Notes: generated by a model not told the origin, from the letters alone. Counted from the stretch's first letter, positions 1 to 51,047 are shown. The stretch is DNA of 64,000 nt from Callorhinchus milii (GCF_018977255.1 NW_024704755.1:6882001-6946000), one strand, 5' to 3'. Made by a program: numbers and translations.

Positions 1-389
1 TCCTACTCCTTATCAGTATGCAGCGAGATTATGCTCAGAAATTAAACCTCTTACATGCTGATCGATGAAGGTCGGAGTGCCTTTGCAGTATTCAAATCCT
101 ACTCATGTGATTGACACTTGGCATCTATCAACATTTCTTATAAACTGTATTTTTCTGTGCTTGTTGCCTCACTGCTAACTGTATTCACTCTGTATTAGTA
201 TTCAGTGTCTCATGTAACTGCTCTTGGCTCGTGTTTGACATCGTGCATTTAGACAGTTCTTTTTTAATAAAGTATACTTTGCCTTTTTTTTAAATTTAAA
301 GCTATTTGTGCGAAGAGAGACAACCTTTTATATTTTAGCAAAAATCTGCTAAACTTTTAGCAGTTACATATTTCTTTCTCTCATTACAG

Positions 390-522
390 GATGGCCAACC
401 TTAGCTATGTCAAGAATTTTAGGTTTTGCAGTGCAGTAAAAGATGAGTTGGGATATTGTCTAACTTCCTTCGAAGCGGCAGTGGAATATATTCACCAAGG
501 CAACCTAAAGTTTGGACAGCCA
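390..522 (+). CDS. ANKRD27: ANKRD27 exon, end of VPS9 domain
   Basis: tacag|G ATG GCC...CAG CCA|gtaag; MANLSYVKNFRFCSAVKDELGYCLTSFEAAVEYIHQGNLKFGQP. Confidence 0.93.
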
Positions 523-6500: not shown

Positions 6501-9500
6501 TGTTGGGTCCCTCCTGAGGTTGCCTTGAAGCACCGTTGATGTCACTTTCTTTGTGCATTTTGCTTAGGCATTATATCTGCATTATAAATTCAGCAGTATT
6601 GTTGCCAGTTAACAAAGTGTTGTGCAAATATAATGTTCTTCTCAAATCCTTTCAGATATTAGACTTGCTGGAAATCACCCACATTGGTAACGATAGACGA
6701 CAGAGTGTTCCCGAGGTAATTTTCATTATTTTGTCCTAATCAAACTGACTCTTTCAGGGTCTTAAACAACAATGGGATCGAGCTGCAATGGTGTGGTATT
6801 GATTCTGTCTGTTAATACTTCATCAGAACATCAGGAAGCAACTTTTTTTATTGATCAGACTACTATTTCTCCCCAGCAGTCTCTGCAGCACCAAAGCCAC
6901 TAAGGTGGCCAAACTATATAATGTTGAGTGGCACTTTAAGAGAAGTTAAACAAATGATCTTATTTGTTAGCCTGGTTTACCATAACTTAGCCTTCCTTAA
7001 TCATCGCTATTTTGGGGGACATAAGGGGGGTGGGGAGGCGAACAAAGGTTTTGCTAACAATTATTTTGCTTAGCTGTAGTGTAAGTGTAATATTGTGTAT
7101 CCTGAACTGTTGCTTTATTTGTAGTCCTCTATCAGATCTCAATCTTCAACAGACGCCGGCAGTCAGAAGTCATCTGTTTCCAGTCTATCCTCTACGTCAG
7201 TTGAGGTGAGGCACGAGGAAGATAAGGGCCGATACAAAGAGGTAAAAGGCTGGTTTCACTCCACTGCTGTTTCTACATAATCCAGAATCTCTCCTGGAGT
7301 ACTAGCACATCTGAATCACTTGAGGCAATAAAAGATATCAACAAATATCACTCAAAACTGATCAAAATTTCCAAGAATATATATTAACAAAAAAAGGATT
7401 TAAGTAACTTTCATTCTTGAAGTGGTCGGAGGATTCTAAGCATAGTATTATGGAGGGGGGACACGGGGCTTTAAAAGGGGGAAATGAACAATTGAGCAAA
7501 GCATCATTCCAGTGGTAAGCAAACCGTAAAATAGAGCCTGGATTATAATGCAGTAATTAGGGTTCCATAAGATCCCAATGAAAGCAAGTAACAACATACG
7601 CTCGCTAGTAAGAGGTTCAGCATTCGCTGTGCAGAAAGATACTAATAATCCTTGCAGTTGATATAACTCCTTATCACGTTTTCGAGACATCTCAAAGCGC
7701 TTTATAGTGACTGTATATTTTGTGGACGAAACGCGGAAGCACACAGCAGCGTCCACAAGCAGGTAGTTGGCTTCATTCCCGCATTAACAACCCTGGCTGG
7801 TGTGCAGGTAACCAATGTGACTGACGTCGGGGTCACTTTTAAACTTGTTGAAACATTTTTTTTAAAAAAACAAGCTTTTAAACTGCCTTCACATTGCTGC
7901 AGTTTAAATGCCTCCTACACTACACACCACTTGCCTGAATCGAGTGGAATTTCTGAAAATGTCGAGATAAAAGCTACATCGAATTGCTGCAAAGTATTAA
8001 CTGCAGCATAAGGAACTCTTGATAATCCTAGCTAGCAACAATCCAATGTCATGAGGCAAAAAGGAAAATGGTTCAAGAACTAAATATTTTAAACTATTTT
8101 GGGTTATTGGTGAGTAAAAATAGTAATGAAAGTTGCCAAATGCCTTGATTCAAGTTGTTTTCATTTTAGAAATTGATGTTTTTTAATAGGTCCTTAACCA
8201 GTTAACTCATTAATGTTTTGCGTAATCCTTGTCTAACAAGATTAGAGTGTTGTTGAAGGGCATGGCCTAAAGCCAGATAATGCAGTTTTATTTCAACTTG
8301 TTAATCCAAATAAATTTAGCTTTTTGTCATTTCATTGCAGGTAGAAAAATTACTGCGCGCTGTTGCTGATGGAGATTTAGAGATGGTGAGTGCAATGCCA
8401 TCAAACATAACTGAAAATATTGGGGGGGGCATTTGTACAGGAAGCATGTGAATCCAATTTTGGGGTCCTCTTTGTACCTGAGGTTTGCTATCCATATTGT
8501 TAATCTGTGCTCCTTATTTTCAGGTGATTAGCACATTAACGTGGTGACATCGCAGTCTTCTGACATTAGTGCTTGTGTGGCTAAATTGCCAGTGTGTAAA
8601 TACTGAGCATCGTTTGTCTCTGGTGTGAAAAGAGGCTTAAAGGACATTATCAAGAGTGCTATCTAAAGTAAATTATTTTGGTGGGAAGATATGGGTGCCA
8701 TAAGTGTTCTCCCTCAGTAATCCTCTATCTGTCTGCTTATGGTACAGCCAGATCAGATGGTATGAAGGAGCCTCTAATTTTTATTGAATCTGCTGAAAGC
8801 AGACTGGGAATTATTGTGACTGCGAGTGACTGAATATACGGTGTTCATAACTTTTAATCCCATTTGTAAAAGTGTTTTTGTAATGTATGATTTTTTTTTT
8901 GCTGCTCTCAGTCATTGCTAGTTAAATATGAATATCGCCTATATCAAAAATCATTTCAGTTTTCCTTAGATCTGCTTTCAGTCTTCCTTTCTTTACCTGA
9001 TAAATGAATTGCATTTTATATTCCTTTTCTCTCCCATGGGCTGCCCTTTTAACGTGTTTTTTTTTAAAAAAAAGACTTTCGTTAAATTAAGACCATTTGA
9101 CACATTAAATCTATTCCTTCAACAGAAAGTCTACATGTTTCCCTACCATAGACTATTAGAGTTCCTGAGAGAAAGCTTGGCGCAAATAACAGTCTATCCA
9201 TTGCCACATCTCAATTATTCACTACTTGTTGCACTCTACAGATGACAATTCCCCTCTTCCAGTTTTACCATTGCATCCCATGAAATAACGGGCTATCACT
9301 GTCTGTGCCTATCTATGTGAGCTTCCATCCTTTTCCCATCCAGATTTTCTACCAGCTCCATTTTGAAGATTTAATCACTAATTTTGCTAACTAGTTTTGC
9401 TAAGAGTTTGTTCCGTGAATCTGTGGGAATCAGTTTCTTTTCATTTCCAGTTTCACTTGAGGTTTATTAATGTCAAGGTCCTTGACCTTGAATAACTGAA

Positions 9501-12500
9501 TCGGTTTTCTCTTCCCTTCCCTCTTAATCTAATTTTTCTTTCTATATGGAAAAGCCACTCAACAAATCTCTCATCATTTAGACTAAATCCTAAAATAATC
9601 CTGGTTGTCCTTTTTTGGGAAGCTTTTCCAAAATTGACACACAATATTTTGAATATAACTTGTTCCAATTTAGTCAAATACTTTGAGATGAAAAGCTGAG
9701 ATGTCTTTGGGTTTTCTTGCCTTAAGCTTCATATTAACTGGAACTTTCGGTGACTGATCAATAGTCCTTGTGCAGCTTTGGTAATGGACAGCCTGTATGC
9801 ATTGCACGCATCAATTTTTAATGCACGTAACCGTAACCTCACATTCATTCATTCGTTGCCCATCGCATTATTGTTTTTTTCCCTTAGTCTAGTCATATTA
9901 GCGTGGATGGTATTCAAAAATGTAATATAAAACCCTCCTCCGATATCCAGACCTTTTTCTGTAATGAATAGATCAAAAATAAAATATTCTTGAGCAGGTT
10001 AATTTGGGTTCCCAAGACCTTCTGTTGTAAACTGATTACAAATAAATATGGAAGCTAATGATAGGTTATTGGTCAAATGATCAATCTACATCGAGAATTG
10101 GAAGGAAATGGAGTTATCTGACATCAGTTGCTTAAAACCCTTATTAACATTTTCATAATCTTAGAAATCCACTCAAATCCACTTTAAGGGGATTTGAACA
10201 GAGGAGAGTGATCACTGATTAAGTTGTATATTGTCGTTTATAATTTAGTTTACTGTCATTCAGCAGTCTGACTGCCCCTAGCACAGTGAGCTTTCATTTG
10301 TCAGTAGGAACCAAGATAAATCTATATTAGGAAGCTGGAAAGTGAGGACTTCGGGATATTATTATTATTATTAATGTAGACACTACAGATTTATCTAATT
10401 TTATTAAAACTGTTGAAAATCAATTGAATATTCCCTTCTGTTCACAAGCTAGGAAGCTTGACCATGCTGTATTTTATATTTAGGTACGTTATCTATTAGA
10501 GTGGATGGATGACGAGCCAGAGGAAGAGGATGAACCTGTGTTGAAATCTGAATTCTGTCACCCTTTATGCCAATGTCCAAAGTGTGAACCTGCTCAAAAG
10601 GTATATTCTCCTTTCTGTAGACTACAGCCTCGCTCTCACTTGAGCTGTGTTTCAAATGACATTTAGTGCAATCTCCTGTTTGCCATCAAGGTTGCTGAAT
10701 GGTTTATGTGTTCTGCATAGAAACTTTCCAGTGTTACTGTAAATGGACTGAGTGTGAATGCTACCAATCAGGATGGGTTTACACCGCTACATGTGGCTGC
10801 TTTACATGGACACTTTGACCTTGTCTCACTTCTGCTGCGGCACGGTGCCAGTGTCAACACAAAGAATTTCCACAATTCAACTGCACTCCACCTAATTTGC
10901 CAGCACAATGAACCACAGGTAAGACTTAGCAACAGCGAGTGGCCTGCATTAATATCTTCCTATTCTCTTCCCCCTCTCCCACCAAAATAAAACATTAACC
11001 CCAGTGCCTTCGCCTTGCTTCCTCCCTTTCCTCCTTCAAGGCCGGTCTCAAAACCTTTCTCTTTGACCGTGGCTTCAGCTCCCCTCTCGACTCTATCCCC
11101 TCCTCGCTCCCTCCCTTCCCTCCCCTCACCCTGACCATGTCCCCCCTGCTCGGGCCCTGACCCAACTGTCCAGCGCCTTGGGACGTCCTCCCGACGTGAA
11201 GGCGCGCTATAAATGAAATCTTGTTGTTGTTAACCTTGTGCAGTTTACATCTTTTTTCCTCCATGTATCTGCATTTTCACAGCTATTTAGTGGAACAATC
11301 AATTTCTGTTCTGTCCTCCTTCCTCCAGCTGGGCTATATTTATATCTGTTTGCTTGAATAGTTATATTGTAAAAAAAAAAGCTGAGCTATATTGTAAAAT
11401 TAGATTTTGGTTGCTAATTGTCATTTTGGAAAATGCAAATGTTTCAGAGATCAAGGGGCTGCTTTACATTCAGAGATCTTTTATGTATAATGTTTATACA
11501 TAATACATTGTGAAATAACATTACATTATTTTGATATTGCCTTTTCTGCTCTTGGAAGACAGTCCCAGTCGATCAACATCCAAATCTATTGCTTGATACT
11601 TTGCTATTCATTCATTTCCTAAGCTCACTTGGCATACTTCTCTCGTGCATATCAAATGGAATAGTGTTTCAAGTGCAGAGCTTTGAATGAAGATGGCTGA
11701 TTATATATCTTCAAAATGGGTCTTAATAATTTGGAGAATAAGAATCCATCTAATCGACAAATAATGTATTCTGTCATAGTTGTGTGTTCGGAGTATTCAT
11801 AAGGAGTGCCACCAAATTAAATTAATGCATTGGTATGAAATTAACATACCTAAAAAAATTGTTTTCATTTTTGGTTTGTATTCATTTCAGGAAATTATGG
11901 ATTTTCTGTGGTTCTGAATTACTATTGAATATTGATTTAATCTTCTGGTCATATTATAAAAAGACAAAACACACCTTTCTGTGCTGTAAGATTCTATGAT
12001 TCTGTTCCATTTCTTACAAAATCCAGTCGCATTGAAACTGCAAGAAATAGTTTTGAAATAGTTGGAATACTGTTTCTGGTTTGGTACAATAAACGTAGAA
12101 CTTTTTTTCTTAAGTGCATTTTTTTAAATTAAACTCCATTTTATGTTCTTCAAATAAATAAGTGATACTCTATTCGTTCTGCTTTTGAAACAGATAGTGA
12201 AATACTTTCTGGATTATAATGCAAAATTGAATAAGAAAGATTCCTATGGTAATACTCCACTGTTGCACGCCTGTTTACGTGGCCATCTAGAAGTTGCTGA
12301 GCTGCTGCTAGAGGTAGGAGCATTTATTGTGTGAAATGTTTGTAAAGTTAAATTTATCTCTCTTAGTCTTGTTAGAATCAGACAATTTAGGCCATTATTT
12401 CTTCTGTGACTAGTTTGTATGTCCTGCAATATGTTGGGCTTGGGAAAGGAATCCTGTCCAAGCCCATATATGAAGCGTAGTGTGTAAGTGACAAAATCAA

Positions 12501-15500
12501 CAATAGTCAAATGTAATAGCCAAACACGTTATTAGCTCCATGAATGATTTACCATTTGCTTATTTGGGGGTCGGTTCCTCAGCATGGCGCGTCCATCAAC
12601 CTCACAAACAACCAAGGGAATACAGCCCTGCACGAGGCCGTAAAAGGAAAGCACGAAACTCTGGTGAATCTGCTCTTGACTTACGGGGGTTCAATCCACG
12701 TGCGAAATAAACAACAGTGTACACCGATAGACTGCGCTGAGGAAGTCTGCGGAAAGGTAAGAGGTTGAGACCAGCATGTGGCTTCATATCAGAACCTGAT
12801 TTTTTGTTTTTTTAAAAAAAAATGACTCGGTGACTCCTGGCTGGATAAAGGCAAACGTAAAGCTCTTGCTATTTTCCAAAGTGGTTGCATCCTGAGCCAT
12901 TCTTCCATGTACCTTCTGGCAGCGTTCAAGGTGAACAGGAATCCCTTCCTGACTAAGAAGGAAGTAGTTCAGAATATTTGTGGGGGCTGGCTGTATCGTA
13001 ACTTTTGTTTTTACTGAATTTAATAAGCTTCTTGCTTCTTAATACATTTTGTACTTAACTTTGTCACAGGATACTGTTTTGTGTGGTCACAACAATATAA
13101 ACACGTCATTTTTTTTACCCAAAGTGCAGAACAATGTGAATTTATGATCCATATTTATGGCTCAACCTAAAGGAAAATACATTTTAAAAAGTCAGATTTC
13201 ATTCTACTAGTAATTTTATGATGATGGAAAGCTTTTTTTTAAAAAAGAACTATTTGTGCAACTGGAATGTCCTGGCTTCACTGAACAGTTTTTGGCTTGA
13301 CACTTGCTTCTTGAAAATTGCACTCTTCAGTAAATTAAACTGGTTGGAATAGAGTAAATTCAAGATTGATTAATGCAAATAACAGTCAGTACTTGAAAGC
13401 ATAGCTTTTAGCTGGGGCACACAGCCTTATAAACATGCTATCCACTTACCGTGGAAATGACACCACCATTCCATAATTTAAATTAAATCATTTCCTGAGC
13501 ACCGCTGAAAATGTCATAGTGTGATAAATGGTGGATGCAGTTTCATTACCTCTACAGATGAGAACGGGTATGACTCATTATTTACTCCAGCCATAATGAT
13601 AACTGGTGATTTAAAAATATTGCCTATTTTTAGGACACTGAGATTTTTAAAATCACAATCCCTTGGTTCTACCTGTTTAAATGTTAGTTGCATCTGATTT
13701 TTGCAAATTTTGATCTTATAGTTTCATAGTTATTGTGCTATCAAATATGAGTAGTGGAGTGCTAAGAAGTTTTGGTGCATATCCAATTGTTTTCAGTAGT
13801 CAGTAATTTGACTAATATCCCTGCTCCCCACCCCACCCCCATTGATATTTGAAAGCTTAATAAACTATTTTAATGACACTAAGGAATGTGGAGCATCACT
13901 TATTTTGTGGGTTAACATTGAATTATCTACTACAGCAACAACAAAATTACATTTATAGAGCGCCTTTCACCTCGGGAGGACGACCGAAGGCACTGATTTA
14001 TCTATCTGATTTTCGCCCACAAAATTTACAGTCAATTCACTTTACAATATATTCTGTGAAGCGCTTTGAGACGTCTAGAAGACGTGAAAAGTGCTATTAT
14101 CAAATGCAAGGATTATTCTTATTATTATCAGTTTTCCTCGTGGTATTGTTTTGCAACTCTATAAAGTTTTTGGCTTTCTTTTCTGTAAATGAGTTGCTTG
14201 GATTGCCAGTTGTCATTTTATTTTTGGTTTTATATAGATCCGTTTTTTGTGACCAGATTATTTTGGCCACCTGTTATGGCAGGAAATAATTGGCTGTGGT
14301 TCACCTACTGGTCTTTTTTATTTAGACTGCGCTGCGGGTTCCATAATTTGAATATTTTATAGAATGTTTATTTTACATTTCGACGGAGGTTTACAAATGT
14401 ATGTTATCCCAGGGTTGCTGAATTTTGGTTTATGAGAAGTAATGTAGTCTGATACAGATACCCAGGAATAATCATAAAACATTTAAACAGAGGCAAGTCT
14501 ATAATGATTTCTGGGGCTTTGTGTTTATTATATTCAGAATATGGAGCTTTTGAAGACTTTGCAGAGAGTATCTGCTCATGTGACTGAGATGGATGGTATT
14601 CCCCGACTCAACACTGATCGGAAGAATCTCCCTGAAAATGTCAAAAAGAAACGTAAGATATTACTGAAACATGAATTGAACAAGTGCATAAAAATATGAC
14701 ACTTTTGTTACAGAATTGCACAGAACTGACTAGAGAGGTGCAATCTAGGGTAAAGCAGTTTTTATTCATCGTCATGAATAAAAACTGCTTTACCCTAGAT
14801 TGAAACTATAGGATAGTTTCTAATTCCCCAATTTATTGAATGAATTTTCTTCTGTGGAAAAAATGAAGCCACTATATGTATTTTAATAGGTGTTCAAATC
14901 CTGTTGATAGTCATAAGTTATTATGTAATTCCAATGTAGAAGTAGAACTAAATCCACTGACTGCTCTGTTTTAATCCAGTCTCTGTATGATTTTATGCCA
15001 CAAATGTTGAGGCCAGTGCTTTGAAGATTAATGCCATCATCCGAATGCTTTTCATTTGTTAGTTTGCCTGAAATTAATCCTCCCAAATCATTTCTTTTGT
15101 CGTTTAGCTGATATTTTTGTGAAGCAGACAGAAGCAGTAGATGAACTGACCAGAGGAAGAACGCAGCTCGTGAACTCTATTAATAAATTTAATAAGTAAG
15201 TAACTACTCTTGCAGAAGACATGCAATTTTTTAAAATCAATTTGGCTACTTTTCACTAATACGGTAAATATTTGTTCAGAGAATGTTTTGTACATTTTGC
15301 AAATAGTCGAGTGGAAATTGCTTCTGCTTGAGCCAGGATTCTAACTCTGAAATTCCCACTCTTGTCCTAATAGCATGGTCATTTCTGCCTCTTGTCAGTT
15401 TGGTGTATCTCCCCCTCCCTTTATTCCTTGAGCCCTTCACTGAAAGAAAGGCAGGACAACCTGAGTATCCACATTATAATATTCCTAATAAAAATAAAGC

Positions 15501-16646
15501 TATCAGAGGGAAGTTTTATGTCGAACTATCTGTGATATATTTTCACAACTTTGTTGCCCCTCTTATCCCAATGGGTCAGAAGAAACTTCCACAAAAAATG
15601 TAAACAAACCTCAAAATCCAGATAATCTGATGCTTTTCTTTAACTGTGGTATAATCAATGTTTTAGATGTTTAGTAACGAGAGCTGCTCAATTAAGAAAC
15701 TGCACACACAACTATATCTAGATACTTTTTTATGAAAATCAAAGCCATAACCTTTTTTTAAAGGAATTGATAATGATTAACATTTGACTGAAGATTACAT
15801 ATATACAGGCTGTTATTCTAGCTACATTCTTGTATTTAGATCCAAGCATTTAAGGAAGACAATGACCAGAGATAATAGCATGCCGAAATTTGATGAACAC
15901 TTAATTCATCAGGTAAGAAAATTGATTGATCTTGTAGTCATGAAAATGTGTAAAATACAAGAGTATGATGAGCATATTTTACAAACTGAACATTGCAAAT
16001 ATCCATGAGTAACTGTTTTATGTGTTAAATATTGCATCTGAATGAGGATGGATTTTTTTTGTCTTGTTAAGATGTCTTATTCCAATCGGTCATCCTGTTC
16101 TACAATTGGAAATTACCACACATTCAAAATACAGTACTGTGTTCGAATCACACAAAGAATTCATGGAACTATCGGCATTATCTTTTCGGCGGTGTTTTAT
16201 TAACAAAAAGAATAAACTGCTGTGAATAAGAGATTACTGAAAGCATCTAATTTTACAATTCACGAAGATGGTCTCTCTCTCTCGCTCTGTTTTGTGTGTA
16301 TTGTACTTTCACAGTATTTATACGATGTGTTCTCATCTGGTCCCAACAGTTAGCAATCAAGACATTTGATAAAGGGAAATTGAAACGAGTCAAAACAGTG
16401 GATCATAGCGGACCATCACTTTTCCATTCTGAAGTTGACGGTGAGAATGAGAAAGAAATGCTGGTGTCTCCAAACAGCAGGACAGAGTCTGGGTATCTGG
16501 GTGCACGGCGCACAGTTTCATTGAGCTATTTACCCAATGAATTGAACGATGTAAACAGCAACACAGAATTCGTAGGGAATTGCAGACTTTCTTCAAAGGT
16601 TTCACCCGATTTAGGGGACGCAAGGGTTGGCAACCACAGAAAATAA
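390..16646 (+). CDS. ANKRD27: ANKRD27 / VARP (VPS9 domain and ankyrin repeat protein), 3' part, 18 coding exons; 5' exons lie upstream of the window
   Basis: Exons 390-522, 1764-1856, 2856-2983, 3750-3832, 4024-4139, 4460-4552, 4982-5179, 6656-6715, 7125-7241, 8341-8385, 10484-10600, 10721-10918, 12194-12313, 12583-12756, 14538-14652, 15108-15195, 15840-15912, 16350-16646. All are AG/GT bounded and splice in phase. They encode the VPS9 C-terminus (MANLSYVKNFRF..DELGYCLTSFEAAVEYI), two CHPLCxCxxC Zn motifs and two ankyrin blocks. Confidence 0.96.
1764..1856 (+). CDS. ANKRD27: ANKRD27 exon
   Basis: tag|GGT...TTT GAG|gtaaa; GSGDLNDKVFFRQRMNLLSQLSTAPIDFLFE. Confidence 0.9.
2856..2983 (+). CDS. 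ANKRD27: ANKRD27 exon, first Zn-fingernail motif
   Basis: cag|CAT...TCA GG|gtaag; HIAAGNRAEVEALLSQGENVEDHVQKMCHPLCFCDNCEKLVSG. Confidence 0.93.
3480..3568 (+). mobile_element. SINE tail fragment
   Basis: AAAGCATTTTGAGACG...ATATCAAATGCAAGG(ATT)n. Confidence 0.65.
3750..3832 (+). CDS. ANKRD27: ANKRD27 exon, ankyrin repeat
   Basis: tag|G AGG ATG...TGC G|gtaag; RMNDPSIVTPFSRDDRGYTPLHVASLC. Confidence 0.92.
4024..4139 (+). CDS. ANKRD27: ANKRD27 exon, ankyrin repeat
   Basis: aag|GC CAA...GTG ACA|gtgag; QATLIDLLISKGGTVNAIDYHGFTPLHLSCQKGYQNVT. Confidence 0.92.
4460..4552 (+). CDS. ANKRD27: ANKRD27 exon, ankyrin repeat
   Basis: cag|TTG...GAA GAT|gtaag; LLLLHYSASSEVQDNNGNTPLHLACMYGHED. Confidence 0.92.
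4982..5179 (+). CDS. ANKRD27: ANKRD27 exon, ankyrin repeat
   Basis: cag|TGT GTC...TCT AAG|gtcag; CVKALVYYD...GDSPLHIAARWGYDGIIEVLLENGA...ETPLQCALNSK. Confidence 0.93.
5810..6093 (+). mobile_element. CR1 LINE 3' end
   Basis: TTTTACACAG...TGGAATGCATTGCCTGAAAGGGTGGTGGAAGC...GATGGGCCGAATGGCCTCCTTCTGTGCTGT...ATTCTATGATTCTAT tail. Confidence 0.85.
6656..6715 (+). CDS. ANKRD27: ANKRD27 exon
   Basis: cag|ATA TTA...CCC GAG|gtaat; ILDLLEITHIGNDRRQSVPE. Confidence 0.85.
7125..7241 (+). CDS. ANKRD27: ANKRD27 exon, Ser-rich linker
   Basis: tag|TCC...AAA GAG|gtaaa; SSIRSQSSTDAGSQKSSVSSLSSTSVEVRHEEDKGRYKE. Confidence 0.83.
7640..7760 (-). mobile_element. SINE 3' fragment in ANKRD27 intron
   Basis: AATAATCCTTGCAGTTGATATA...CTCAAAGCGCTT...GAAACGCGG. 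Confidence 0.7.
8341..8385 (+). CDS. ANKRD27: ANKRD27 exon
   Basis: cag|GTA GAA...GAG ATG|gtgag; VEKLLRAVADGDLEM. Confidence 0.92.
10484..10600 (+). CDS. ANKRD27: ANKRD27 exon, second Zn-fingernail motif
   Basis: tag|GTA CGT...CAA AAG|gtata; VRYLLEWMDDEPEEEDEPVLKSEFCHPLCQCPKCEPAQK. Confidence 0.93.
10721..10918 (+). CDS. ANKRD27: ANKRD27 exon, ankyrin repeats
   Basis: tag|AAA CTT...CCA CAG|gtaag; ...[31 protein letters not shown]...TALHLICQHNEPQ. Confidence 0.93.
11003..11231 (+). mobile_element. L2 LINE 3' end
   Basis: TCCTTCAAGGCCGGTCTCAAAACCTTTCTCTTT (SFKAGLKTFLF) then CAGCGCCTTGGGACGTCCTCCCGACGTGAAGGCGCGCTATAAATG and (TTG)n tail. Confidence 0.75.
12194..12313 (+). CDS. ANKRD27: ANKRD27 exon, ankyrin repeat
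   Basis: cag|ATA GTG...CTA GAG|gtagg; IVKYFLDYNAKLNKKDSYGNTPLLHACLRGHLEVAELLLE. Confidence 0.92.
12583..12756 (+). CDS. ANKRD27: ANKRD27 exon, last ankyrin repeat (alternative in-frame donor at 12744 possible)
   Basis: cag|CAT GGC...GGA AAG|gtaag; HGASINLTNNQGNTALHEAVKGKHETLVNLLLTYGG...TPIDCAEE(VCGK). Confidence 0.88.
13933..14128. mobile_element. L2-like tail (-) adjoining SINE 3' fragment (+)
   Basis: CAACAAC...ATTTATAGAGCGCCTTTCAC then TTTCGCCCACAAAA...GTGAAGCGCTTTGAGACG...CAAATGCAAGGATT. Confidence 0.7.
14538..14652 (+). CDS. ANKRD27: ANKRD27 exon, start of C-terminal tail
   Basis: cag|AAT ATG...AAA C|gtaag; NMELLKTLQRVSAHVTEMDGIPRLNTDRKNLPENVKKK. Confidence 0.82.
14741..14802. repeat. 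Perfect 29 bp inverted repeat with 4 nt spacer
   Basis: CAATCTAGGGTAAAGCAGTTTTTATTCAT-cgtc-ATGAATAAAAACTGCTTTACCCTAGATTG. Confidence 0.95.
15108..15195 (+). CDS. ANKRD27: ANKRD27 exon, C-terminal tail (helix of WH2-like motif 1)
   Basis: pyrimidine tract, tag|CT GAT...AAT AA|gtaag; phases 1/2 fit both neighbours; DIFVKQTEAVDELTRGRTQLVNSINKFN. Confidence 0.75.
15840..15912 (+). CDS. ANKRD27: ANKRD27 exon, C-terminal tail
   Basis: tag|A TCC AAG...CAT CAG|gtaag; SKHLRKTMTRDNSMPKFDEHLIHQ. Confidence 0.78.
16350..16646 (+). CDS. ANKRD27: ANKRD27 terminal coding exon
   Basis: cag|TTA GCA ATC...TAA; LAIKTFDKGKLKRVKTVDHSGPSLFHSE...VGNHRK*; followed by an AT-rich 3' UTR. Confidence 0.78.
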   Translation, partial: LAIKTFDKGKLKRVKTVDHSGPSLFHSEVDGENEKEMLVSPNSRTESGYLGARRTVSLSYLPNELNDVNSNTEFVGNCRLSSKVSPDLGDARVGNHRK

Positions 16647-17258
16647 ATTTCACTGCAATTTAGGGGACAAGAAATGTGTGGAAACAAAACACTTTCCTGG
16701 AAACAAAAAGGTAGGACTTGTGCAGGTGCTGTTCAAGAAAGGACTTTATCTGTCAATATATTTGTTCTTCTGTCAGTCTTGTAAGACTACAACTATGAAG
16801 CAAAAAGCACCGTTAAATTGAAAAAAAATAGCACTTCCACTGTGAGGTTACAAAGGGGAAAAGCACTTCCACTGTTAATGTATTACAATATTTTTTTGCA
16901 CTTGACTATTAGGGAATTGATGCTTTGTCCACGTTAGCTGCTGCATTGTACGCCATAAACATGCAATCTGTATTATGTGTGTGTATAATATATATATATA
17001 TGAAAAATATCACTGCTAGGCTGTTTGGGAATTTAGATTTTAATGCCAAGATTCTAAAATAGAGACCATTCAAATCTTATGAAAATGTATTTTTTAAATG
17101 CTGGTCTACCTTTCTATAAAGCACATACTAAACTTGTGTTTCCATTGATGTCTGTATTTTTCAAGAGACCTTTCTATAACAATGTAATAATGTGTGCCTT
17201 ATTTAATTTGTAAATGTGCTTAAGGAATGTTACTCTTCGTGTAAACAAATGACTAAAT

Positions 17259-17462: not shown

Positions 17463-17764
17463 AATTCCTTGCATTTGATATAGCGCTTTTCACGTCGGGA
17501 GGACGTCCCAAAGCGCTTCACAGAACACACTGTAAAGTGAATTGACTATATTTGTGAGCGAACGCGGCAGCCAATTGCGCACAGTAATGTCCCACAAACA
17601 GTCGTGGATTGAAGATGACCAATTTATTATTGTTTTTGGTTTTGGAGGGATTATTATGTGTGTGGAGTAAGGAAACTTGCCCAAGGTTTCGCCCTCTGCC
17701 TGGAATTGAACTCCGGTCTCTCGCTTGCAAAGCGAGTGCTCGAACCACTGAGCTATAGGACTCC
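17463..17764 (-). mobile_element. Near full-length SINE, same family
   Basis: Reverse complement aligns by eye head-to-tail with 20856-21175. Confidence 0.88.
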
Positions 17765-19766
17765 TAATTTCCTGTTATGATTTGCAAACCATATTCATCT
17801 GTAGTAAAATCCATCTGATGCTAATTAAATCTTCACTGTCTTTTGTAGTTGTAATATAACTCTGAAGTTTGCTTGAACTCAAGCTTGACAACATTGTATT
17901 GTGTGGAAGGTGATTATGATAAGTGGTTCTTTCATTAATTGGTCTTGTCATATTCCTGAGGATAATGACCTGTTTTGTTAAGCACTTAAGTACTTTGAAG
18001 AGAAACTGGGTTGATAGCATTATCTTCCAATTAATAGGTGAGCTAAGGTCACTGTTCCAGTCTTATCCCTTAGAGCATAGGCCTTAAAACGGTAAAGAAG
18101 ATGACCTGTGACACCTTCAGCAATGGCTTTCATATGAGTTTAATTGTTGCTGCCTGAAATTCATGCTCGATAGATATAGCAATATTTCAGTTGCAAGAAG
18201 TAACTTCAATCCAGAGCATGGTTGCTATGAAGCACATCTTTATTTATTCATGGGCACTGAGGTGCAGATTAAATTAAGATTTAAAAAAAAATACAGCACA
18301 AAACTGTGCTATCTTAATATTTAACTATAAACTGATGAGAGTAAACTTACTGTTGCACTCAAGAGTACAACTCAGATATACAAGTTGTTTGCATGAAACC
18401 CCAACTTCACACAAGAGCTGCTTTTGGTAGATACATTTTCCAATGTGCCAACAACTTAATTCAAACTTAAATGAAATAAAACCCATGGAAGTTTATTATA
18501 GACACTAATGAGAGGCATAACACCCTTAGTACGTTTGTAATAGATCCTGGTTATTGTTCTTGGGTGATGGTGGGGTGTTTGGCAAATAACAAATGCCTAC
18601 ATTAAGATTATGCAACAATTTGTGCTTGTAATCCTGAGACTGTGGATCAGGATGATTAGCTGCCTAGAGAAATACCACCACACTGTCTGCTATCACAATA
18701 GCAGTGAACTGTGAGTTTGACGACCTATTCTGAATCTGCTTGTAGGGTCACAGTCCTCCTCCCAAATGGATTGTATGCCACTGCGTAAAAAACTCAAAAC
18801 ACCCATCTGGCACTGAAATGTGGGCTTGTGCCTCTTACTCTTAAAGACAAGTGGTTTTGTTCAGCATTTCTACTTAATGACACAAACCTGTAGAATTTTC
18901 TTGCTTGTGATTTTGCCATTTAAAGTCGTAAAGCTGCAATGTTCTGTTCCCAGCTGTTAAAAACTTGAATCAAACCGATATCTCGTTTCAACACTAGTCC
19001 ATTAGAAACATACTTGCTGATTAATAAGGACTCAGTTGACAAGCAATTCAATAAATATTCAAACCAAACTTCAATTTAGTTAAAACATATTGAACGTGGT
19101 TTTGTTATTGCACAGCGTAATTGTGCCCAAGTTACACTAAAGTCCAAACAGGCTGTGATCATCTTGTCACAAATGCATTACAAAAGCAGAATGTGCATGC
19201 TGATTAGATGTGCATACAACTAATGACACTCTGCAACACTGCAATGGTTATGTTGGGATGAGCACTAGAAGGAAAGGCCATAGAAAGCTATAGAAGAGAA
19301 CATAGGCTCATCTCCTGTCTGTTGTCAATTCCAGAGCTACTTTCACTTCTAAGGAAAAGGCAAATGGTTATGGCTGTGCGACCTGTTCTAAACATATTCT
19401 TGTTTTGTGTTGTAGTAATCCACTCTAAATGATGGGTTCAAGCCATGTAGTTTATAAGAACAATAGATATTTAATTATTTCAAACTCATTGTTTCTTTAT
19501 ACAATGGCATATTTTGCCTCTTTGCATTTCTGAATGTTTCAATGAATATCATTATAGCAACCACTTGCATGAACTCCTATCAGCAAAAAGCAATTGGGAG
19601 CTTCGGGCGAGATAATATACACACTTCTGTTTCCATTATGTTCCAATAGCTGAAGGAATCAATAAAACAAATGCAAAAATCCCCAAACACAAACAGTTAT
19701 GAATTCGCAGATCACCGACTATATTGCAAGTTTGCAGCCAGATGTGTTACAGAAACATTAAACAAG

Positions 19767-19870
19767 GCGGGATGGGGGAGAGGGGGGCGGATGGGGGAGA
19801 GGGGGGCGGATGGGGGAGGGGGCNNNNNNNNNNNNNNNNNNNNNNNNNGGGGGGAGTGGGGGGTGGGAGC
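19767..19870. repeat. G-rich minisatellite (GGATGGGGGAGAGGGGGGC), reverse complement of the 23697-24365 array, interrupted by a 25-N gap
   Basis: Units seen directly; N run at 19824-19848. Confidence 0.85.
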
Positions 19871-20138
19871 GGCAGAAGGTGCGGTCGAAGAGATAAGTCT
19901 TGAGACAAGTCTTTGAAATCAGAGGGGAATGAGGTGAAGCAAAAGTGTTTCCGGGGCTGTGGCGGACGGTCGAGACCCCGAGAGACAGACGCCCTCTGAC
20001 GGTGGAGTTGAACGGGGGCCGAGCTCTGAGGGTCTGTGTCCACCCGCGAGGCCCGAACCCCGGGTCCCGCTTCCCATCAGCGGCTTCTCCTTCCTCCGGT
20101 CTCCCCCCCCACACCACCCCCCCCCCGGCGGCCCTTAC

Positions 20139-20204
20139 CCCGCGTTGAGCCTGAAGCTCAGACAACCTCTGGCGCCGGATCGCCTCCAACTCCTCGTCCG
20201 CCAT
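20139..20204 (-). CDS. PDCD5: PDCD5 exon 1 (opposite strand to exons 2-6)
   Basis: Minus strand ATG GCG GAC GAG GAG TTG...CGC GGG|gtaag; MADEELEAIRRQRLSELQAQRG, 66 nt, phase 0, inside a CpG island. Confidence 0.93.
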
Positions 20205-20611
20205 CGCCGTCGCTCGCGTCGCATCCGGCGGCGCGTTTCGACCCGCGGCTCCCGGCGCAGCGCACCCCGGCGGCCACCGCGGGAACCACAGCGGCGCCCT
20301 GTCCAGCGCAGCGCAGCGCAGCGGAACGGCACCGACGGCCGAACCGCAGCTCAGCCGCGCAGCGCCCTCCAGCGGCCACCAGGCAGCACAGCAGCACAGC
20401 AGCACAGCACAGTAAAGGTTATTTTCCCCCCAAATAAAAAAAAAGAACCCATGTGGTTGGGAGTTTTTCTTGGCCACTGAGACCCACACTGAAGGCGCGC
20501 AGTCGTTTTAAACTCCAGCCCACGAAACACGCCCTTTACAAATCAATTCACGGTGCGCCTCGGGGGGGGGGGTCCCGGCGCGCGCGTCCCCTGACGCAGG
20601 CGGTGACCCCA

Positions 20612-20695
20612 TCAACAACAACAACAACAACAACCACAACAAGATTCCATTCGTAGAGCGGCGTCCGCGCCGGGAGGACGTCCCAAGGCGCCGGG
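20612..20695 (-). mobile_element. L2-like tail with (CAA)n
   Basis: (CAA)n GATTCCATTCGTAGAGCG...CGGGAGGACGTCCCAAGGCGC, reverse complement of the 11170-11231 tail. Confidence 0.65.
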
Positions 20696-20855
20696 CCGTT
20701 GGGTCCGTCGCCGCGCTTTTAAGGATGTCTTATTATTGCGAAGCACTCCGCAAAGGTTGCGCAGCACGGAAACAGCCCACTCGCCCAACTCGTCCACACC
20801 CGGGTGTTTGTCTTCCACATTAAGGTCTCGCTCCTCTCTTGGACGCATCGACCGT

Positions 20856-21175
20856 GGCCTCCTGTAGCTCAGCGGTTCGAGCACTCGCTTTGCAAGCGAG
20901 AGACCTGAGCTCAGTTCCAGGCAGAGGGCGAAACCTCGGGCAAGTTTCCTTACTCCACACACAGAGCCTAATAATAATCCCTTCAAAACCCAAAACAATA
21001 ATAAATTGGTCATTTTCAATCTACGGCTGTTTGTGGGACATTGCTGTGCGCAATTGGCTGCCGCGTTCGCCCGCAAATATACAGTCAATTCACTTTACAG
21101 TGTGTTCTGTGAAGCGCTTTGGGATGTCCTCCCGACGTGAAAAGCGCTATATCAAATGCAAGAATTATTATTATT
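20856..21175 (+). mobile_element. Near full-length tRNA-derived Deu-domain SINE
   Basis: tRNA-like head TCCTGTAGCTCAGCGG...CTCGC TTTGCAA GCGAG; Deu-like core TGTTTGTGGGACATTGCTGTGCGCAATTGGCTGCCGCG; L2-like tail AAGCGCTTTGGGATGTCC...GCGCTATATCAAATGCAAG(ATT)n; many copies in the window. Confidence 0.88.
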
Positions 21176-22342
21176 TTTATTACATAATTCTGATTCAACC
21201 GTCACTTCAGGCAGCGAGTTCGCTCTCCTCTGTGTGAAGTGGCCTTCGCGCGACGTTGTTTCTTGTTCCTTTTGAGCTTATTTGGAAGATTTTATTAAAG
21301 CGCGTTTCTTTTTGTTGCACACTTCATTTTCGAAGCATTCAATTCTATTATTATCCATTTTTTTTCCCCTTCTTATCCAGCCTTTCTTGGCTGGGAAAAT
21401 GCGTAGGCTTCAGAAAAGCACAACCTGATTTTTAATAAAGCCGTTAGTTCACGTTCAAAGTGGCTGAACATTTTTAACCCGAACGCCAGAGGGCATCACC
21501 AATACTGCTACAGATATAAAATCCATTTCCCTTGTAACTCAGGAACCAAAACTTCAGCCAAACTCCTTTTCTTCTAATAAAAAGTGCAGAGTTTCTACTC
21601 TGGCTGCTGCGAATGCTAATTTTGTAATAGATGAACATTGAATTCATTAAAATATTGTGTTGAGATTTTGGCTGATCTGCATTTCAAAGATCTGTGATGC
21701 TGAACATCTGGAAACATGAATTATTTTGTTGGAAAATACTCTGTGAACTGTTGCCAGATAGATGTTCAAGAAAATAAACCTTTAGGATAATTTGATTAAT
21801 GATAGAGTATATTTCCCCAAAAAAATAACATGGTATAAAACCGAAGCACTGTTTCAGCAGCTAGATTCTACTGGTTTAGAGGGATGAACACTTTAAATTT
21901 TAAAAAGTTATACATTTGTTTTAGGAATACAGTTAATATATATTTATGAAATAATCTGAACTTTTTGAGGTTGCTCCAAAATTGCTTTTACTGGTAATTC
22001 CTGCTTTTGGAGATTGTTGTCATTGCTTTGGCGAACGAAAAATACCTGTTTTGCTCAAAAAGCACGAGAAAGGGTTGCAACTGTATTTGTGGAGTGATGT
22101 CTTTCATTATCCTCATTATCCTGTGGTTCATGTTGATGAGACAGAGGTCACCGAGAAAAACTACTGCAAAATGATTCACTTTAGATCCATTTCAGTTTGT
22201 GATAGCGCAGTGGGAAAAATATATGAAACAGGATTTTGACATGATATGATCCCAGGAGGTTTTAATGAAACAATAGTTAAAAAAATGTAAAATGTGTGCG
22301 CTCAGTTCTGATTCTCCATTGTGAATTTGTTCAAATGAAAGT

Positions 22343-22552
22343 AATAATTATAATAATCCTTGCATTTGATATAGCGCTTTTCACGTCTTCTCGACATCTC
22401 AAACTGCTTCACAGAATAGAATGTAAAGTGAATTGACCGTATGTTTGTGGGCGAAACGCGGCAGCCAATTGCGCACAGCAGTGTCCCACAAACAGTCGTG
22501 GATTGAAAATAACCAATATATTATTGTTTTGTTTTTTGGAGGGATTATTATT
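22343..22552 (-). mobile_element. SINE 3' half
   Basis: (TAA)n CCTTGCATTTGATATAGCGC...GGCAGCCAATTGCGCACAGCAGTGTCCCACAAAC. Confidence 0.85.
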
Positions 22553-23696
22553 AAAATCTGCTCAGAGAGTAGTTCAGTTAAGTGAACAGAAATTGAACTC
22601 TTTCCGCTAATTATAAAACCATTGGATTAATGGTTAATAACTGAACAAATGAACCCTCTTGTTTCTCTCAGGTAGATGCTTTCCTGTTTAGATCGTACAA
22701 TTTATACCTGTTATTTTCAATAGATTGTCTCTCTTGAACCTCAAAGGCATGAGGGCCAGAATATTTCTGTTTCCACATGTTCACTATTCAAAGCTAATCT
22801 CCTAGCAGCATTTTCTAGCCCTAGCAGCACAGATAGCATTGTGTTGTATGGTGTATTTGTTTATCTCAGACTGCACAGTTCCCTTTATCTTCTCAAATTA
22901 TCTCAACTGGATATGTATCCAGTTATTATTCTACAAGAAGTTATTGCGGTGTGAATTGTTTCTGAGCCAGTTTTCAATTCAGTGTGTTAATTTGCCGTGA
23001 ATACCGTAGGTTTTAGCCTTAACTATTCACTGACTTCCAGTAGATTCGAGAAGCATGATCCATTGGTTATAAATTCATGTTGACTACTTATTGAATTGAT
23101 TGATGGCATCCCTTCTAACGTTTTCAGGTATTCTCCCCACTACAGATGTTAGGCTAACCGGCCTATATATTTAAGATTATGCCTCAGATTGCACTACTGC
23201 AGTATTAAACGCAGGTGGTGCAATTGATCTGGCCCTGTTGAGAAAATCCGTGGGCGGTCGAATAGACTGCTGAAGAGCTTGTAAGCGGAAAGTTTTACAC
23301 TATTGAACAGATAGTCATGTGGATACAGATAGTCACACATGTGCAGAGCTCGCTTCAAGCCCTAGTGGGAGCCTTGACAGCAGGAAATATAAATAAGTCT
23401 GTCCACTCCAATTCACAATTAAAAATAGACATGAGATGTAATGAGCTAATAATTCTTAGGAGTCTAGCAGCTTGCAGCATCTCACATTAGATTCACCTGT
23501 AATATAAATGGGAGTACTGCCACTGACAGTTTCTAGCCTTTGGAAAGTTCAATTCTTGAGCACAAGTGCATTTCCTTTGTTGTAACAGAATTAAAAAAAA
23601 TGGTAATAGTTGTTATTTTTAACTAGTGGAAGAACACAATGATTGGAAAGATTATTATTATTATTATTATTATAAGATGTTCTGAATAAAAGATTC

Positions 23697-24365
23697 GCCG
23701 CCCCCTCTCCCCCATCCGCCTCCCTCTCCCCCATCCGCCTCCCTCTCCCCATCCACCCCCTCCCCCATCCCCCTCCCCATCCCTCCCCATCCGCCCCCCT
23801 CTCCCCCATCCACCCCCTCCCCCATCCCCCCTCCCCCATCCGCCTCCCTCTCCCCCACTCCCCCTCCCCCATCCGCCCCCTCTCCCCATCCGCCCCCTCT
23901 CCCCACTCCCCCCCCCCTCCTCCCCCCACTCCCCCTCCCCTCCCCATCCGCCCCCTCTCCCCCATCCGCTCCCCCCACCTCCCTCTCCCCCATCCGCCCC
24001 CTCTCCCCCATCCCCCCCTCTCCCCCATCCCCCCCCTCTCCCCATCCGCCCCCTCTCCCCATCCGCCTCCCTCTCCCCCATCCGCCCCCTCTCCCCATCC
24101 ACCCCCTCCCCATCCCCCCCCATCCCTCTCCCCCATCCGCCCCCCTCTCCCCATCCACCCCCTCCCCCATCCGCCCCTCCCCCATCCGCCTCCCTCTCCC
24201 CCATCCCCTCCCCCATCCGCCCCCCTCTCCCCCATCCGCCCCCTCTCCCCATCCGCCCCCCTCTCCCCCATCCGCTCCCCCCACCTCCCTCTCCCCCATC
24301 CGCCCCCTCTCCCCCATCCGCCCCCCTCTCCCCATCCGCCCCCTCTCCCCCACCCCCCCCCCTCC
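23697..24365. repeat. C-rich minisatellite, ~18-21 bp unit CCCCATCCGCCCCCTCTC
   Basis: Many degenerate tandem units, seen directly. Confidence 0.92.
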
Positions 24366-25289
24366 CAGTTCGGCCCAGTTTGTGAAGTGCTTTGAGACGT
24401 TCTCACTGTGTGAAAGGTCCCATATTAGGGGTTTTTGAAAATCTTTGAAAACATGAGAAGATATAAGAGTGGAGACAGAACAGGGTCATGGGATTAGATG
24501 CTGTGGATAAGGGAGGGTGACAAACACGTGGCAGTGGCTTCTTTTATGATTCAGAACAGTTTTTACAACATTTTCAGAATGCAAAGATTAGCCAACCATT
24601 CGGGTTTTGTATCTTGCATTGCAGGCGTTATTTTTGTAACCACATTCTGCTTTGTATCATGTGGGGGGTGCCTTTTTGTGGAAAATAATATGCTATATTT
24701 TACCAGGATATTGGTAAATGTAGATGTAGTACACTACAGTATACTGTATAACTTGACTCCACTATTGAATGGCCTTGTCTAATATGGATTTTTGAAGATT
24801 GAACTCTGGCTATCTTTTAGCCTTTCCTGATTTCCCTATCCCAAGTCTGTGAAGTCATAACCTTTTTATATCATAGTTGCTTAATTCTGTTTACAACTTG
24901 AAACCCCACCTATTTACATCTGTCGAGGCAGCGCACACATGAAATTCAACCCCTCACAACACCCTTAAGTTGGCTGTTGTGCTGACTTGGAAACCCATTT
25001 AGTAACATCTCCCAAGGAAGCCCTGATAGTAACACGAGTCGTCTGCAAGACGTGTTAAAGCAGCAAACGGCGTGTTGGCATGAAAAGACTGCCTAAATAC
25101 CTTGCCGGTAAATTAAATTTATGATTTAACCTGATCAGTGAAAAATAGTTGGCTTAATGAACAGATGTTATGATGTTATATAATGTTAAGTTATGCCTGG
25201 CATATTTTGAATAATTATAGAGCTCATAAATCAGCCATCATTTATGTACGAAGGGTTGATAATATGTTACAAATCATATCTTAATTCAG

Positions 25290-27730
25290 GATGCACCAGG
25301 TGAGCAGCAAAACCAACAGGAGGCCAAACAGAGGTAGGAATACAGCTCCACTTGAGTCGGAGATTGCTTTTCGCATTGAAAATGTCATCTCTTTTCTAAA
25401 CTGTTACCGTCCAGAGGGGTAGAAGTACATCCTCCTTGCAGGTTGCTCAGCAATGGACTTTGCTTCCTTCCCTGTGTAAAAGTGGTGCCTGACATCTGTT
25501 TCATCGTGAGCACTAGTCTGAAAAACAATCTTCCTTGAAAGCACAGTCTCTCTGGAGCTGAACTAGCTGAGAGGAGAAATGCATTAAAAACACAGGCAGA
25601 AATGGTGGAATCAAAGACAAATTTAGAGGTATAGATCTGTCCTCAACCCTGCGCACCCAAAACAAACAGGGTACGGAGGTTGCTAGCTGGACATGTACAG
25701 TCACGTGCTAGTTACCATCCTGCTTGGTCCTTGCCAAATCGGGTATAAAATGACTCAGATGTGTTACTGTGATTTAGAGCCATCAAGCTGTGATTTATAA
25801 ATATTTGTTTTCCATTCACCAATTACTGTAATACTGTGTTTAACAACCGTGCAATTTTTATTTAAAAAAATTAAATTGTAAAGTTATCCCAGTTTTTAAT
25901 CCCTGTGAAGAATAGCCATTGGGTCCTCTGTGTAATAGCATTTATTTTGTCGATTTTCACTGTGCAGTGTTCTGTACTCTTGCCTCCCTAATACAAACAA
26001 ATCGTGATTGCAGGGAGGCAGAAATGAGGAACGGTATTCTCGCCCAGGTTTTGGAACAGTCGGCTCGCGCCAGATGTAAGTAGCCAAAACCAGACCTTGA
26101 ATTTAATCAGCAGGTAACTTCTCTGCCCTTTGCATTGTTTACTGCTCCAGCTGTTCTGCCTCAAATTTTAAATTAGGTCCAAAATGCGATATTCAGAATG
26201 AGCCCCAGTTCCTCTCTGTTCGGCAAACACCTGGTGTCTGCTTCATGATCCCGGCTCGATCTGCCCTTCCCTCCTTACCTTTGACTTGCCTTATCCCAGT
26301 TTTTAATCCCGGTGCAGTGGGACGTCCTCTCGACGTGAAAGGCGCTATACAAATGTAATTTTGTATTGTATTTTCAATTGAGCTTTCTCAGAACTCAGTG
26401 CATCCTGAGTACATTAAAGCTGCACTTGCTTGCTGTTACCATCTGGTGGTGTAAATGTTCTGTCACAACTGAAAAGGGTCAGTGCTGTAACTTTTCAGTG
26501 CCAACATTTTAAATTCTGCAAATAAATTAAATATTTTAAATTACGATAACTAAATTAATTAAATCACGATATTTAAAGTAAATTAAATTTACTTTAATTT
26601 TTAAATATTTTACATGGTTCATACAAACCAAAGATTCACAGATATAATTTGGTTGAGCCTTCCTCACTGTTCAAAAAGTCATTTTAAGTTTATTTTTTTT
26701 ATTTCAGTGAGTAACCTGGCCCTTGTGAAGCCTGAAAAAGCCAAATCGGTGGAGAATTACCTAATACAGATGGCAAGATATGGGCAGCTTGGTGGAAAAG
26801 TAAGGCAAAATTATTAACTTGAATTGTGTATTTATATTTTAAAAAGTATTTGATTTCACTCAAGATTGAATCTTTTATCAAACTTTATTGATGCAGAAAT
26901 GGATTTGAAACATTTGAAAAACATCTGTTTCAAACATTTGAAAAGACAAAAATTCACGGAGAGGAAATGAATGTTCTACCAGTACAACGATATTCCTCTA
27001 AAATAGTTGACTTACTAATTTGTGTATTACAATGTCTATTTGTCCTAGAAGCATATTTATCCTGTGGTGATAGTGTTTTTGCACAATGCTCTGCAATTTC
27101 AAAGTATTGAGTTAGATGTTAAACTTTTGTATGTTTTCTGTAATCCTGTCTTAACCACAGGAAGGAAATAAATAGTACAAGGACCTCTTGTATTTCAAGC
27201 CAGTTGCAAATTGTAACTTACATTTGTGCCTTTTAGATTTCTGAATCGGGATTGATTGAGATCCTTCAGAAAGTCAGCCAACAAACAGAAAATAAAACTA
27301 AAGTCAAGGTACGTGCAGATGGTTTGCATTTAAAACGTTATTTTGGCTCCCCAAAGATGATTTAGTTCTCAATCACCCCTCACCTTATCGCTGAGAACCA
27401 CCAGCAAATATTTTAAGTAAAATCTAAAATGTTTTATTCCTCCTTGCAACATATTCTGGCCACGGTGGTGATCAAGAACATTCTTATGAACGTGTGCTAG
27501 CTTTGTTCTCAAATCAGCCACTGGAAAGGGTGTGTGTGTGTGTGTGCGTGACATTTTTCTTTTAAAAATCCTTTTTTTTAAAAAAACATAACATTGAAGT
27601 CAAACTAAGCTGATAAGTTCTTGAAAATGTGAGATTTCAAAAGACATTGAAAGTTTAGTTTTGGTATCCTTGTGAATTTCAGTTTAACAGAAGAAAAGTA
27701 ATGGATTCTGATGAAGAAGAGGACTATTGA
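25290..27730 (+). CDS. PDCD5: PDCD5 (programmed cell death 5) exons 2-6
   Basis: Exons 25290-25333 ([15 protein letters not shown]), 26014-26075 ([21 protein letters not shown]), 26708-26799 ([30 protein letters not shown]), 27237-27308 ([24 protein letters not shown]), 27683-27730 ([15 protein letters not shown]). All AG/GT bounded and in phase. Confidence 0.95.

Positions 27731-51016: not shown

Positions 51017-51047
<31 letters not shown>

What the first reader, a model, noticed from the sequence alone, without database searches (positions are those of the whole stretch)
19767..24365. PDCD5 exon 1 and promoter are flipped relative to exons 2-6, on a ~3.9 kb segment bounded by inverted minisatellites
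Seen in sequence: exon 1 (20204-20139) is intact on the minus strand while exons 2-6 are intact on the plus strand, so no cis-spliced mRNA is possible as assembled. The segment 19849 to ~23700 is flanked on the left by a G-rich array with a 25-N gap and on the right by its C-rich reverse complement. Inverting that segment restores a collinear gene with exon 1 (phase 0) joining exon 2 (phase 0). Inference: most likely a mis-oriented contig caused by the repeat. A real or polymorphic inversion by recombination between the inverted arrays, which would act as an on/off switch for PDCD5, cannot be excluded from sequence alone.
Basis: partly seen in the sequence, partly recalled or inferred. Interest (0 to 1): 0.7.

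Follow-up and report, generated by a model that had tools for sequence, protein, structure and literature searches.

The report
Assembly flip splits intact PDCD5 gene
In this elephant-shark genome sequence a 3.9-kb piece carrying the start of the PDCD5 gene lies backwards, but DNA from other animals of the species and spliced RNA show that piece the normal way round, so it is likely an assembly error and not a genetic on/off switch.

Summary
Verdict: real in the assembly, most likely not in the animal; ordinary. Exon 1 of the only PDCD5 copy found is on the minus strand and exons 2-6 are on plus. The flipped piece is 19767-23694 (3,928 bp). In all 4 whole-genome contig sets laid (one study), a contig stops matching at 19766 and runs on. 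In the 2 where letters were shown, it continues into 23694 on the other strand, with no array and no base lost. RNA-type contigs of 2 studies join exon 1 to exon 2. A public 127-aa protein holds all six exons. The 'inverted minisatellites' are likely two pieces of one intron-1 array that the flip cut. With no array at the upstream junction, the normal allele offers no substrate for a recombination switch. Still open: a pipeline error (about 0.8) or a private heterozygous inversion in the assembled animal (about 0.17), whose reads I could not test. The scan has noted similar private-or-artefact rearrangements at other loci of this genome.

The parts
19767..23694 (-). Segment flipped in this assembly (3,928 bp): a piece of the intron-1 array, the N run, the 5' part of intron 1, exon 1, the CpG-island promoter and about 3.4 kb upstream
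   Evidence: contigs leave the window at 19766 and re-enter at 23694 on the other strand
19766..19767 (.). Left breakpoint, in unique sequence. In other animals 19766 is followed by 23694 downward. The cut falls inside a GATC word of the collinear form
   Evidence: table 7 (X1, X4), checked against the window; table 8 (X1-X3 stop aligning at 19766)
19767..19823 (-). 57-nt piece of the G/C-rich minisatellite carried to the left by the flip; absent at this place in X1 and X4
   Evidence: depth 0 at 19780-19835 in both runs; for the unit
19824..19848 (.). 25-N run, likely an assembly gap inside the G-quadruplex-type array
   Evidence: a second run of exactly 25 N on another contig, in 984 kb scanned. 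Cannot be told from masking with certainty
19849..19945 (.). One half of an interspersed repeat copy (LINE-2-like, label recalled); its other half lies at 24367-24430 on the opposite strand
   Evidence: 8 of 13 other copies carry both halves in line
20139..20204 (-). PDCD5 exon 1, coding part (22 codons)
20205..20850 (-). 5' UTR and CpG-island promoter region (extent approximate)
   Evidence: 20001-21000 has GC 0.63 and CpG observed/expected 1.03; X8 contig reaches 20217
23694..23695 (.). Right breakpoint; inferred to lie inside the single intron-1 array
   Evidence: the array side is inferred, not seen in reads
23695..24366 (+). Main part of the C-rich minisatellite (672 bp, G-quadruplex motifs on the minus strand); intron 1 in the collinear gene
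24367..24430 (.). Other half (tail) of the interspersed repeat that begins at 19849-19945
25290..25333 (+). PDCD5 exon 2
26014..26075 (+). PDCD5 exon 3
26708..26799 (+). PDCD5 exon 4
27237..27308 (+). PDCD5 exon 5
27683..27730 (+). PDCD5 exon 6, coding part with stop; an AATAAA lies at 28487

Best explanation
The assembly carries 19767-23694 backwards relative to other animals of the species, and this is likely an assembly error in an otherwise ordinary, intact six-exon PDCD5 gene. Shown: other animals join 19766 directly to 23694 on the other strand with no array, and exon 1 is spliced to exon 2. Inferred: the natural locus has a single G/C-rich minisatellite of 750 bp or more in intron 1, grown inside the purine-rich tract of an interspersed repeat. 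This hard-to-sequence array left a 25-N gap. Some step of scaffolding, gap filling or polishing then cut once in unique upstream DNA and once inside the array, 57 bp from the gap, and turned the piece in place. That produced the look of two inverted arrays. Which program did it is not known.
For:: X1 record 1 (3,226 nt, depth 9.8) lies + on 18607-19766 and then - on 23643-22528, with 48 letters between; the window has 51 unique letters there, and the difference fits one unit of an ATT repeat. X2 and X3 contigs also stop matching at 19766 and run on 44 and 43 letters; the loose letters of X1 and X4 behind 19766 equal the reverse complement of 23665-23694, and both runs have depth 0 on 19780-19835. 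X8 (1,002-nt contig, depth 365) and X11 (859 nt, depth 107; another study) run from exon 1 straight into exon 2; public protein P0001 (127 aa, XP_007887567.1 / V9L5E1) contains all six exon translations in order; in 8 of 13 other copies of the repeat at 19872-19945, the 170 bp in front match the reverse complement of 24367-24430 above all 60 shuffles (controls 0, 0 and 2 of 13), so the flip parted one repeat copy; no second PDCD5 copy found. PMC5520688 (abstract and passages): Pdcd5-null mice die at mid-gestation. PMC3504050 (passages): overfilled gaps are suspected to mark inversions and assembly mistakes. PMC7757076 (passages): gap-filled sequence is GC- and G4-rich.
Against: No read of the assembled animal was tested. 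Both breakpoints in the assembly are plain sequence with no N, reciprocal and exact on the unique side; a simple mis-scaffolded contig usually has a gap at each end, and I cannot name the program step that would do this. The four DNA sets are one study, and contigs drop rare variants. X5 (RNA?) did not cover exon 1. In the split-repeat test 5 of 13 copies gave no match, and in the first version only 1 of 4 copies beat 200 shuffles. The second 25-N run found has no inverted flank, so the pattern is not shown to be systematic.
Confidence: 0.8

Rival explanations
1. A real, private and probably heterozygous inversion in the assembled animal: a blunt end-joining event with one break in the G-quadruplex-forming intron-1 array and one in unique upstream DNA. 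It would be a PDCD5 null allele, and the assembler would have kept this haplotype.
For: Both junctions are N-free, reciprocal and lose no base on the unique side. The 57-nt extension beside the gap is what a gap filler would write if reads really held this junction (inference). Heterozygous Pdcd5 mice are born at the expected ratio (PMC5520688, passages).
Against: Not seen in 4 of 4 other animals' contig sets, though these can drop a rare or G-rich branch. One break sits 57 bp from an N run, and N runs of 10 or more are rare here (4 in 984 kb). A haploid assembly would have had to choose the broken allele. Earlier unchecked notes list several other private-or-artefact rearrangements in this assembly.
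Confidence: 0.17
2. An invertible on/off switch: two natural inverted minisatellites recombine and flip the promoter and exon 1, as a polymorphism or somatically.
For: In the assembly the arms are inverted and up to 100% complementary over 39 nt.
Against: The collinear allele has no array at the upstream junction, so it has only one array and no substrate for recombination. Flipping back through the two array pieces would leave array sequence at that junction, and X1 and X4 have none.
Confidence: 0.01
3. The window's orientation is fixed in the species and the mRNA is made by trans-splicing or from a second gene copy.
For: RNA contigs alone cannot tell cis- from trans-splicing.
Against: DNA contigs of other animals are collinear at the upstream junction; one match only for exon 1 and for exon 4 in G000.
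Confidence: 0.01

Closest known systems
Vertebrate PDCD5 (human chains 1yyb, 2k6b, 9unw_D; Pfam PF01984; public protein XP_007887567.1 / V9L5E1 of Callorhinchus milii)
   Same: All six exon translations are exact substrings of the public 127-aa protein; exons 1 and 4 match the human chains.
   Different: Only the orientation of exon 1 in this assembly. The gene itself is ordinary.
Local mis-orientation beside an overfilled gap in long-read gap-filled assemblies (PBJelly; PMC3504050, PMC9635638, PMC7757076, passages read)
   Same: N run of exactly 25, which is PBJelly's minimum gap size in PMC3504050; it lies in GC/G4-rich sequence; such gaps are tied to hidden scaffolding errors and inversions. 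That PBJelly writes 25 N at overfilled gaps is recalled and was not in the passages seen.
   Different: Neither breakpoint is itself a gap; the N run lies 57 bp inside the flipped piece. That this assembly used PBJelly was not tested.
Repeat-mediated recurrent inversions such as the F8 intron-1 and intron-22 inversions (recalled; F8 intron 1 also named in note e1-9917629)
   Same: An inverted segment that parts promoter and exon 1 from the rest of a gene, with inverted repeats at its ends in the flipped form.
   Different: F8-type inversions need two pre-existing inverted copies in the normal allele. Here the normal allele has none at the upstream end.

Membership tests
Intact vertebrate PDCD5 gene | Six exons with canonical splice sites that give a full-length PF01984 protein | tested here: met
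   384 coding nt, 127 aa plus stop; every exon found in P0001
Intact vertebrate PDCD5 gene | Exon 1 spliced to exon 2 in RNA | tested here: met
   2 of 2 RNA-type runs laid there (2 studies); X5 had no cover of exon 1. The tool marks RNA as a guess, but the contigs change exactly at the splice sites
Assembly mis-orientation | Independent DNA of the species shows the other orientation | tested here: met
   4 of 4 sets stop at 19766; letters shown in 2; one bridging contig. Upstream junction only; one study
Assembly mis-orientation | Gap or hard-to-sequence repeat at or next to a breakpoint | tested here: met
   25 N 57 bp from the left break; right break in a G4-motif array
Assembly mis-orientation | Reads of the assembled animal do not carry the assembled junctions | not tested
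   The source animal's runs are not identified and both read-laying runs were used
Repeat-mediated invertible segment (NAHR inversion or switch) | Two inverted repeat copies flank the segment in the un-inverted allele | tested here: not met
   no array at the upstream junction in X1 and X4
Repeat-mediated invertible segment (NAHR inversion or switch) | Both orientations found in the population or in one animal | tested here: inconclusive
   Only the collinear form seen in 4 contig sets; contigs can drop rare or G-rich branches
End-joining (blunt) inversion allele | Reciprocal junctions with little or no homology and little loss | tested here: met
   no base lost or doubled on the unique side and no shared letters at either junction; a software cut gives the same picture

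The most novel reading that the evidence does not exclude
The assembled animal carried a real heterozygous 3.9-kb inversion, made by blunt joining of a break in a G-quadruplex minisatellite to a break in unique DNA. It silences one PDCD5 allele and creates, after the fact, a pair of inverted arrays through which it could revert.
Probability: 0.17. Interest if true: 0.3.

Novelty: not a real feature. Interest (0 to 1): 0.1.

Why it matters
As biology it matters little: PDCD5 is intact and spliced in this species. As a resource matter, this genome serves as a slow-evolving vertebrate reference, and here a conserved gene's promoter and first exon are flipped with N-free breakpoints that look like a natural invertible cassette. 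Other small inversions and inverted repeats noted in this assembly should be checked against independent animals before they are read as evolution. If the private allele were real, it would be one more example of a gene-breaking inversion at a G-quadruplex array.

Tried and rejected
(1) Idea that exons 2-6, not exon 1, are the misplaced part, prompted by the recalled human order with PDCD5 facing ANKRD27. Rejected: the bridging contig turns the exon-1 segment, and no N run lies between 24366 and 49936. (2) Idea that the segment's left end belongs to the second G-rich array at 47931-48309. Rejected: only 19-20-nt low-complexity matches, and the split repeat points to 24367. (3) Idea of a 5-nt shared word at the breakpoints. 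Rejected once the junction letters were seen. (4) The cut lies inside a GATC word (about 1% by chance for one end). Noticed after the fact, and the other break is not at GATC, so it is not used as evidence. (5) Joint and loose-end tables were swamped by a high-copy SINE; only table 8 was used. (6) No listed holder was on record as RNA; X5 had no cover of exon 1 and no DNA contig covered 19836-19875 properly. These blanks are no evidence. (7) Test for a systematic pattern: 984 kb of G000 held 21 single N, two 25-N runs, one of 136 and one of 501; the second 25-N run (L053, 4.5 kb from a SPRY1-like gene) has no inverted flank match within 15 kb. I could not confirm the SPRY1 flip of note e1-7791166 there. 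(8) Literature: 'PDCD5 + Callorhinchus' listed 1 paper, unrelated by title and abstract start; 'PDCD5 + inversion + minisatellite' listed 0; the search on mis-oriented small contigs listed 3 papers, seen as listing only. No supplements were read. (9) Of 24 runs listed, 7 were laid (X1-X5, X8, X11).

Full report
Observation. The window holds a six-exon PDCD5 gene. Exon 1 (20204-20139) is on the minus strand and exons 2-6 (25290-25333, 26014-26075, 26708-26799, 27237-27308, 27683-27730) are on plus, with canonical splice sites and compatible phases. Exons 1 and 4 match solved human PDCD5 chains, and exon 4 passes the PF01984 cut-off. Searches of the own genome G000 gave one full match for the exon-1 region and one for exon 4, so no second copy was found. 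A G-rich piece (19767-19823) and 25 N lie on the left, and a 672-bp C-rich array with the same unit lies on the right.

DNA of other animals. The run search listed 24 runs, four of them genome-sized contig sets of one study (X1-X4). On 18600-23715, X1 gave one 3,226-nt contig that follows the window to 19766, then lies on the opposite strand from 23643 down to 22528, with 48 letters between. The tool masks 23644-23715, and the window has 51 unique letters from 23644 to 23694. X2 and X3 contigs also stop matching at 19766 and run on 44 and 43 letters, which were not shown. On 19500-20330, the loose letters of X1 and X4 behind 19766 are the reverse complement of 23665-23694, and neither run covers 19780-19835. 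X4's contig runs on 1,167 letters and X1's 1,164, which fits seven and six units of an ATT repeat (inference). So in these animals the segment is turned round, the upstream junction is unique sequence, and no base is lost or doubled there. The true segment is 19767-23694, 3,928 bp.

RNA and protein. Contigs of two RNA-type runs from two further studies (X8, 1,002 nt, depth 365; X11, 859 nt, depth 107) pass from exon 1 directly into exon 2 at the splice sites. The tool marks these runs as guessed RNA. A third, X5, did not cover exon 1. The protein search returned a 127-aa PDCD5 of Callorhinchus milii (XP_007887567.1, V9L5E1), placed on a contig of the same length as C14. Each of the six exon translations is an exact substring of it, in order. 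How that model was drawn on this contig was not shown.

The other junction. The link rests on the splice junction and on a split repeat. The stretch 19872-19945 belongs to an interspersed repeat (LINE-2-like; label recalled). In 8 of 13 other copies found in the fetched DNA, the 170 bp in front match the reverse complement of 24367-24430 above all 60 shuffles. The controls scored 0, 0 and 2 of 13. A first version on four copies gave 1 of 4 against 200 shuffles. The two halves of one repeat copy therefore likely stood in line with the array between them, that is, the array grew in the repeat's purine-rich tract in intron 1.

Mechanism. The natural locus likely has one minisatellite, in intron 1, rich in G-quadruplex motifs. 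The assembly shows one cut in unique DNA and one inside this array, 57 bp from a 25-N run, with the piece turned in place. The two 'inverted minisatellites' are then a product of the flip and not its cause. N runs of 10 or more are rare in this genome (4 in 984 kb), and two have exactly 25 N, on different contigs, which suggests an assembly convention, though masking cannot be excluded. The PBJelly paper defines gaps as 25 N or more and suspects overfilled gaps of marking inversions and assembly mistakes (PMC3504050, passages). PMC9635638 ties them to hidden scaffolding errors (passages), and PMC7757076 reports GC- and G4-rich fill (passages). Whether this assembly used that program was not tested. 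Pdcd5-null mice die at mid-gestation while heterozygotes are born normally (PMC5520688, abstract and passages); the cause is placental, so this carries over to an egg-laying fish only loosely. I put assembly error at 0.8.

Rivals. A private heterozygous inversion in the assembled animal (0.17) explains the N-free, exact, reciprocal junctions at least as easily, and only that animal's reads can exclude it. An invertible switch (0.01) fails its defining test, because the collinear allele has no upstream array. A fixed inversion with trans-splicing (0.01) is contradicted by the bridging contig.

Comparison and novelty. The gene is an ordinary PDCD5. The flipped form looks like F8-type repeat-mediated inversions (recalled) but is not a member of that class. 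Two paper searches found no report of this locus. Earlier unchecked notes on this genome list other rearrangements left open between private allele and assembly error. I looked at four Sprouty loci for one of them and could not confirm it. A look-up for PDCD5 found nothing of this kind among the 8 of 10 notes shown. Verdict: not a real biological feature on present evidence; interest 0.1.

Noticed in passing
window 1-16700 (+), 48600-64000 (+); G000:C14:6982590-6997197 (-): Neighbours: an ankyrin-repeat gene (ANKRD27 by recalled sequence; Pfam Ank), a cadherin gene (PF00028) and a Dpy19-family gene. Once repaired, PDCD5 points the same way as the ankyrin gene, whereas in human I recall them facing each other. 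That would be an old whole-gene inversion in one lineage; not tested.
   Followed up: partly
window 20324-20341: X1 and X4 contigs depart from the window at 20323; X1 shows 18 gap letters, X2 and X3 show 5 in this region. A length polymorphism in a GC-rich repeat just upstream of exon 1.
   Followed up: no
window 23651-23671: ATT microsatellite likely polymorphic (six or seven units); X2 and X3 contigs break in it.
   Followed up: partly
window 49936-50574: 136 N, two bases, then 501 N, beside a TCAC repeat in intron 1 of the cadherin gene; gap or masking cannot be told apart.
   Followed up: no
window 47931-48309: Second G-rich minisatellite (23-nt unit, about 17 copies) just upstream of the cadherin gene's CpG island.
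   Followed up: partly
window 48600-49790: First coding exon of the cadherin gene is very GC-rich and codes poly-Gly, poly-Ala and poly-Arg runs.
   Followed up: no
window 17466-17760, 20860-21180, 22342-22560: Three copies of a high-copy tRNA-like SINE, in inverted pairs of 85-96% complementarity; one lies about 650 bp upstream of exon 1. None is at a breakpoint.
   Followed up: partly
L053:924-948 (G000:C1:842924): Second 25-N run, 4.5 kb beyond the stop of a SPRY1-like gene, with unique flanks and no inverted flank match within 15 kb.
   Followed up: partly
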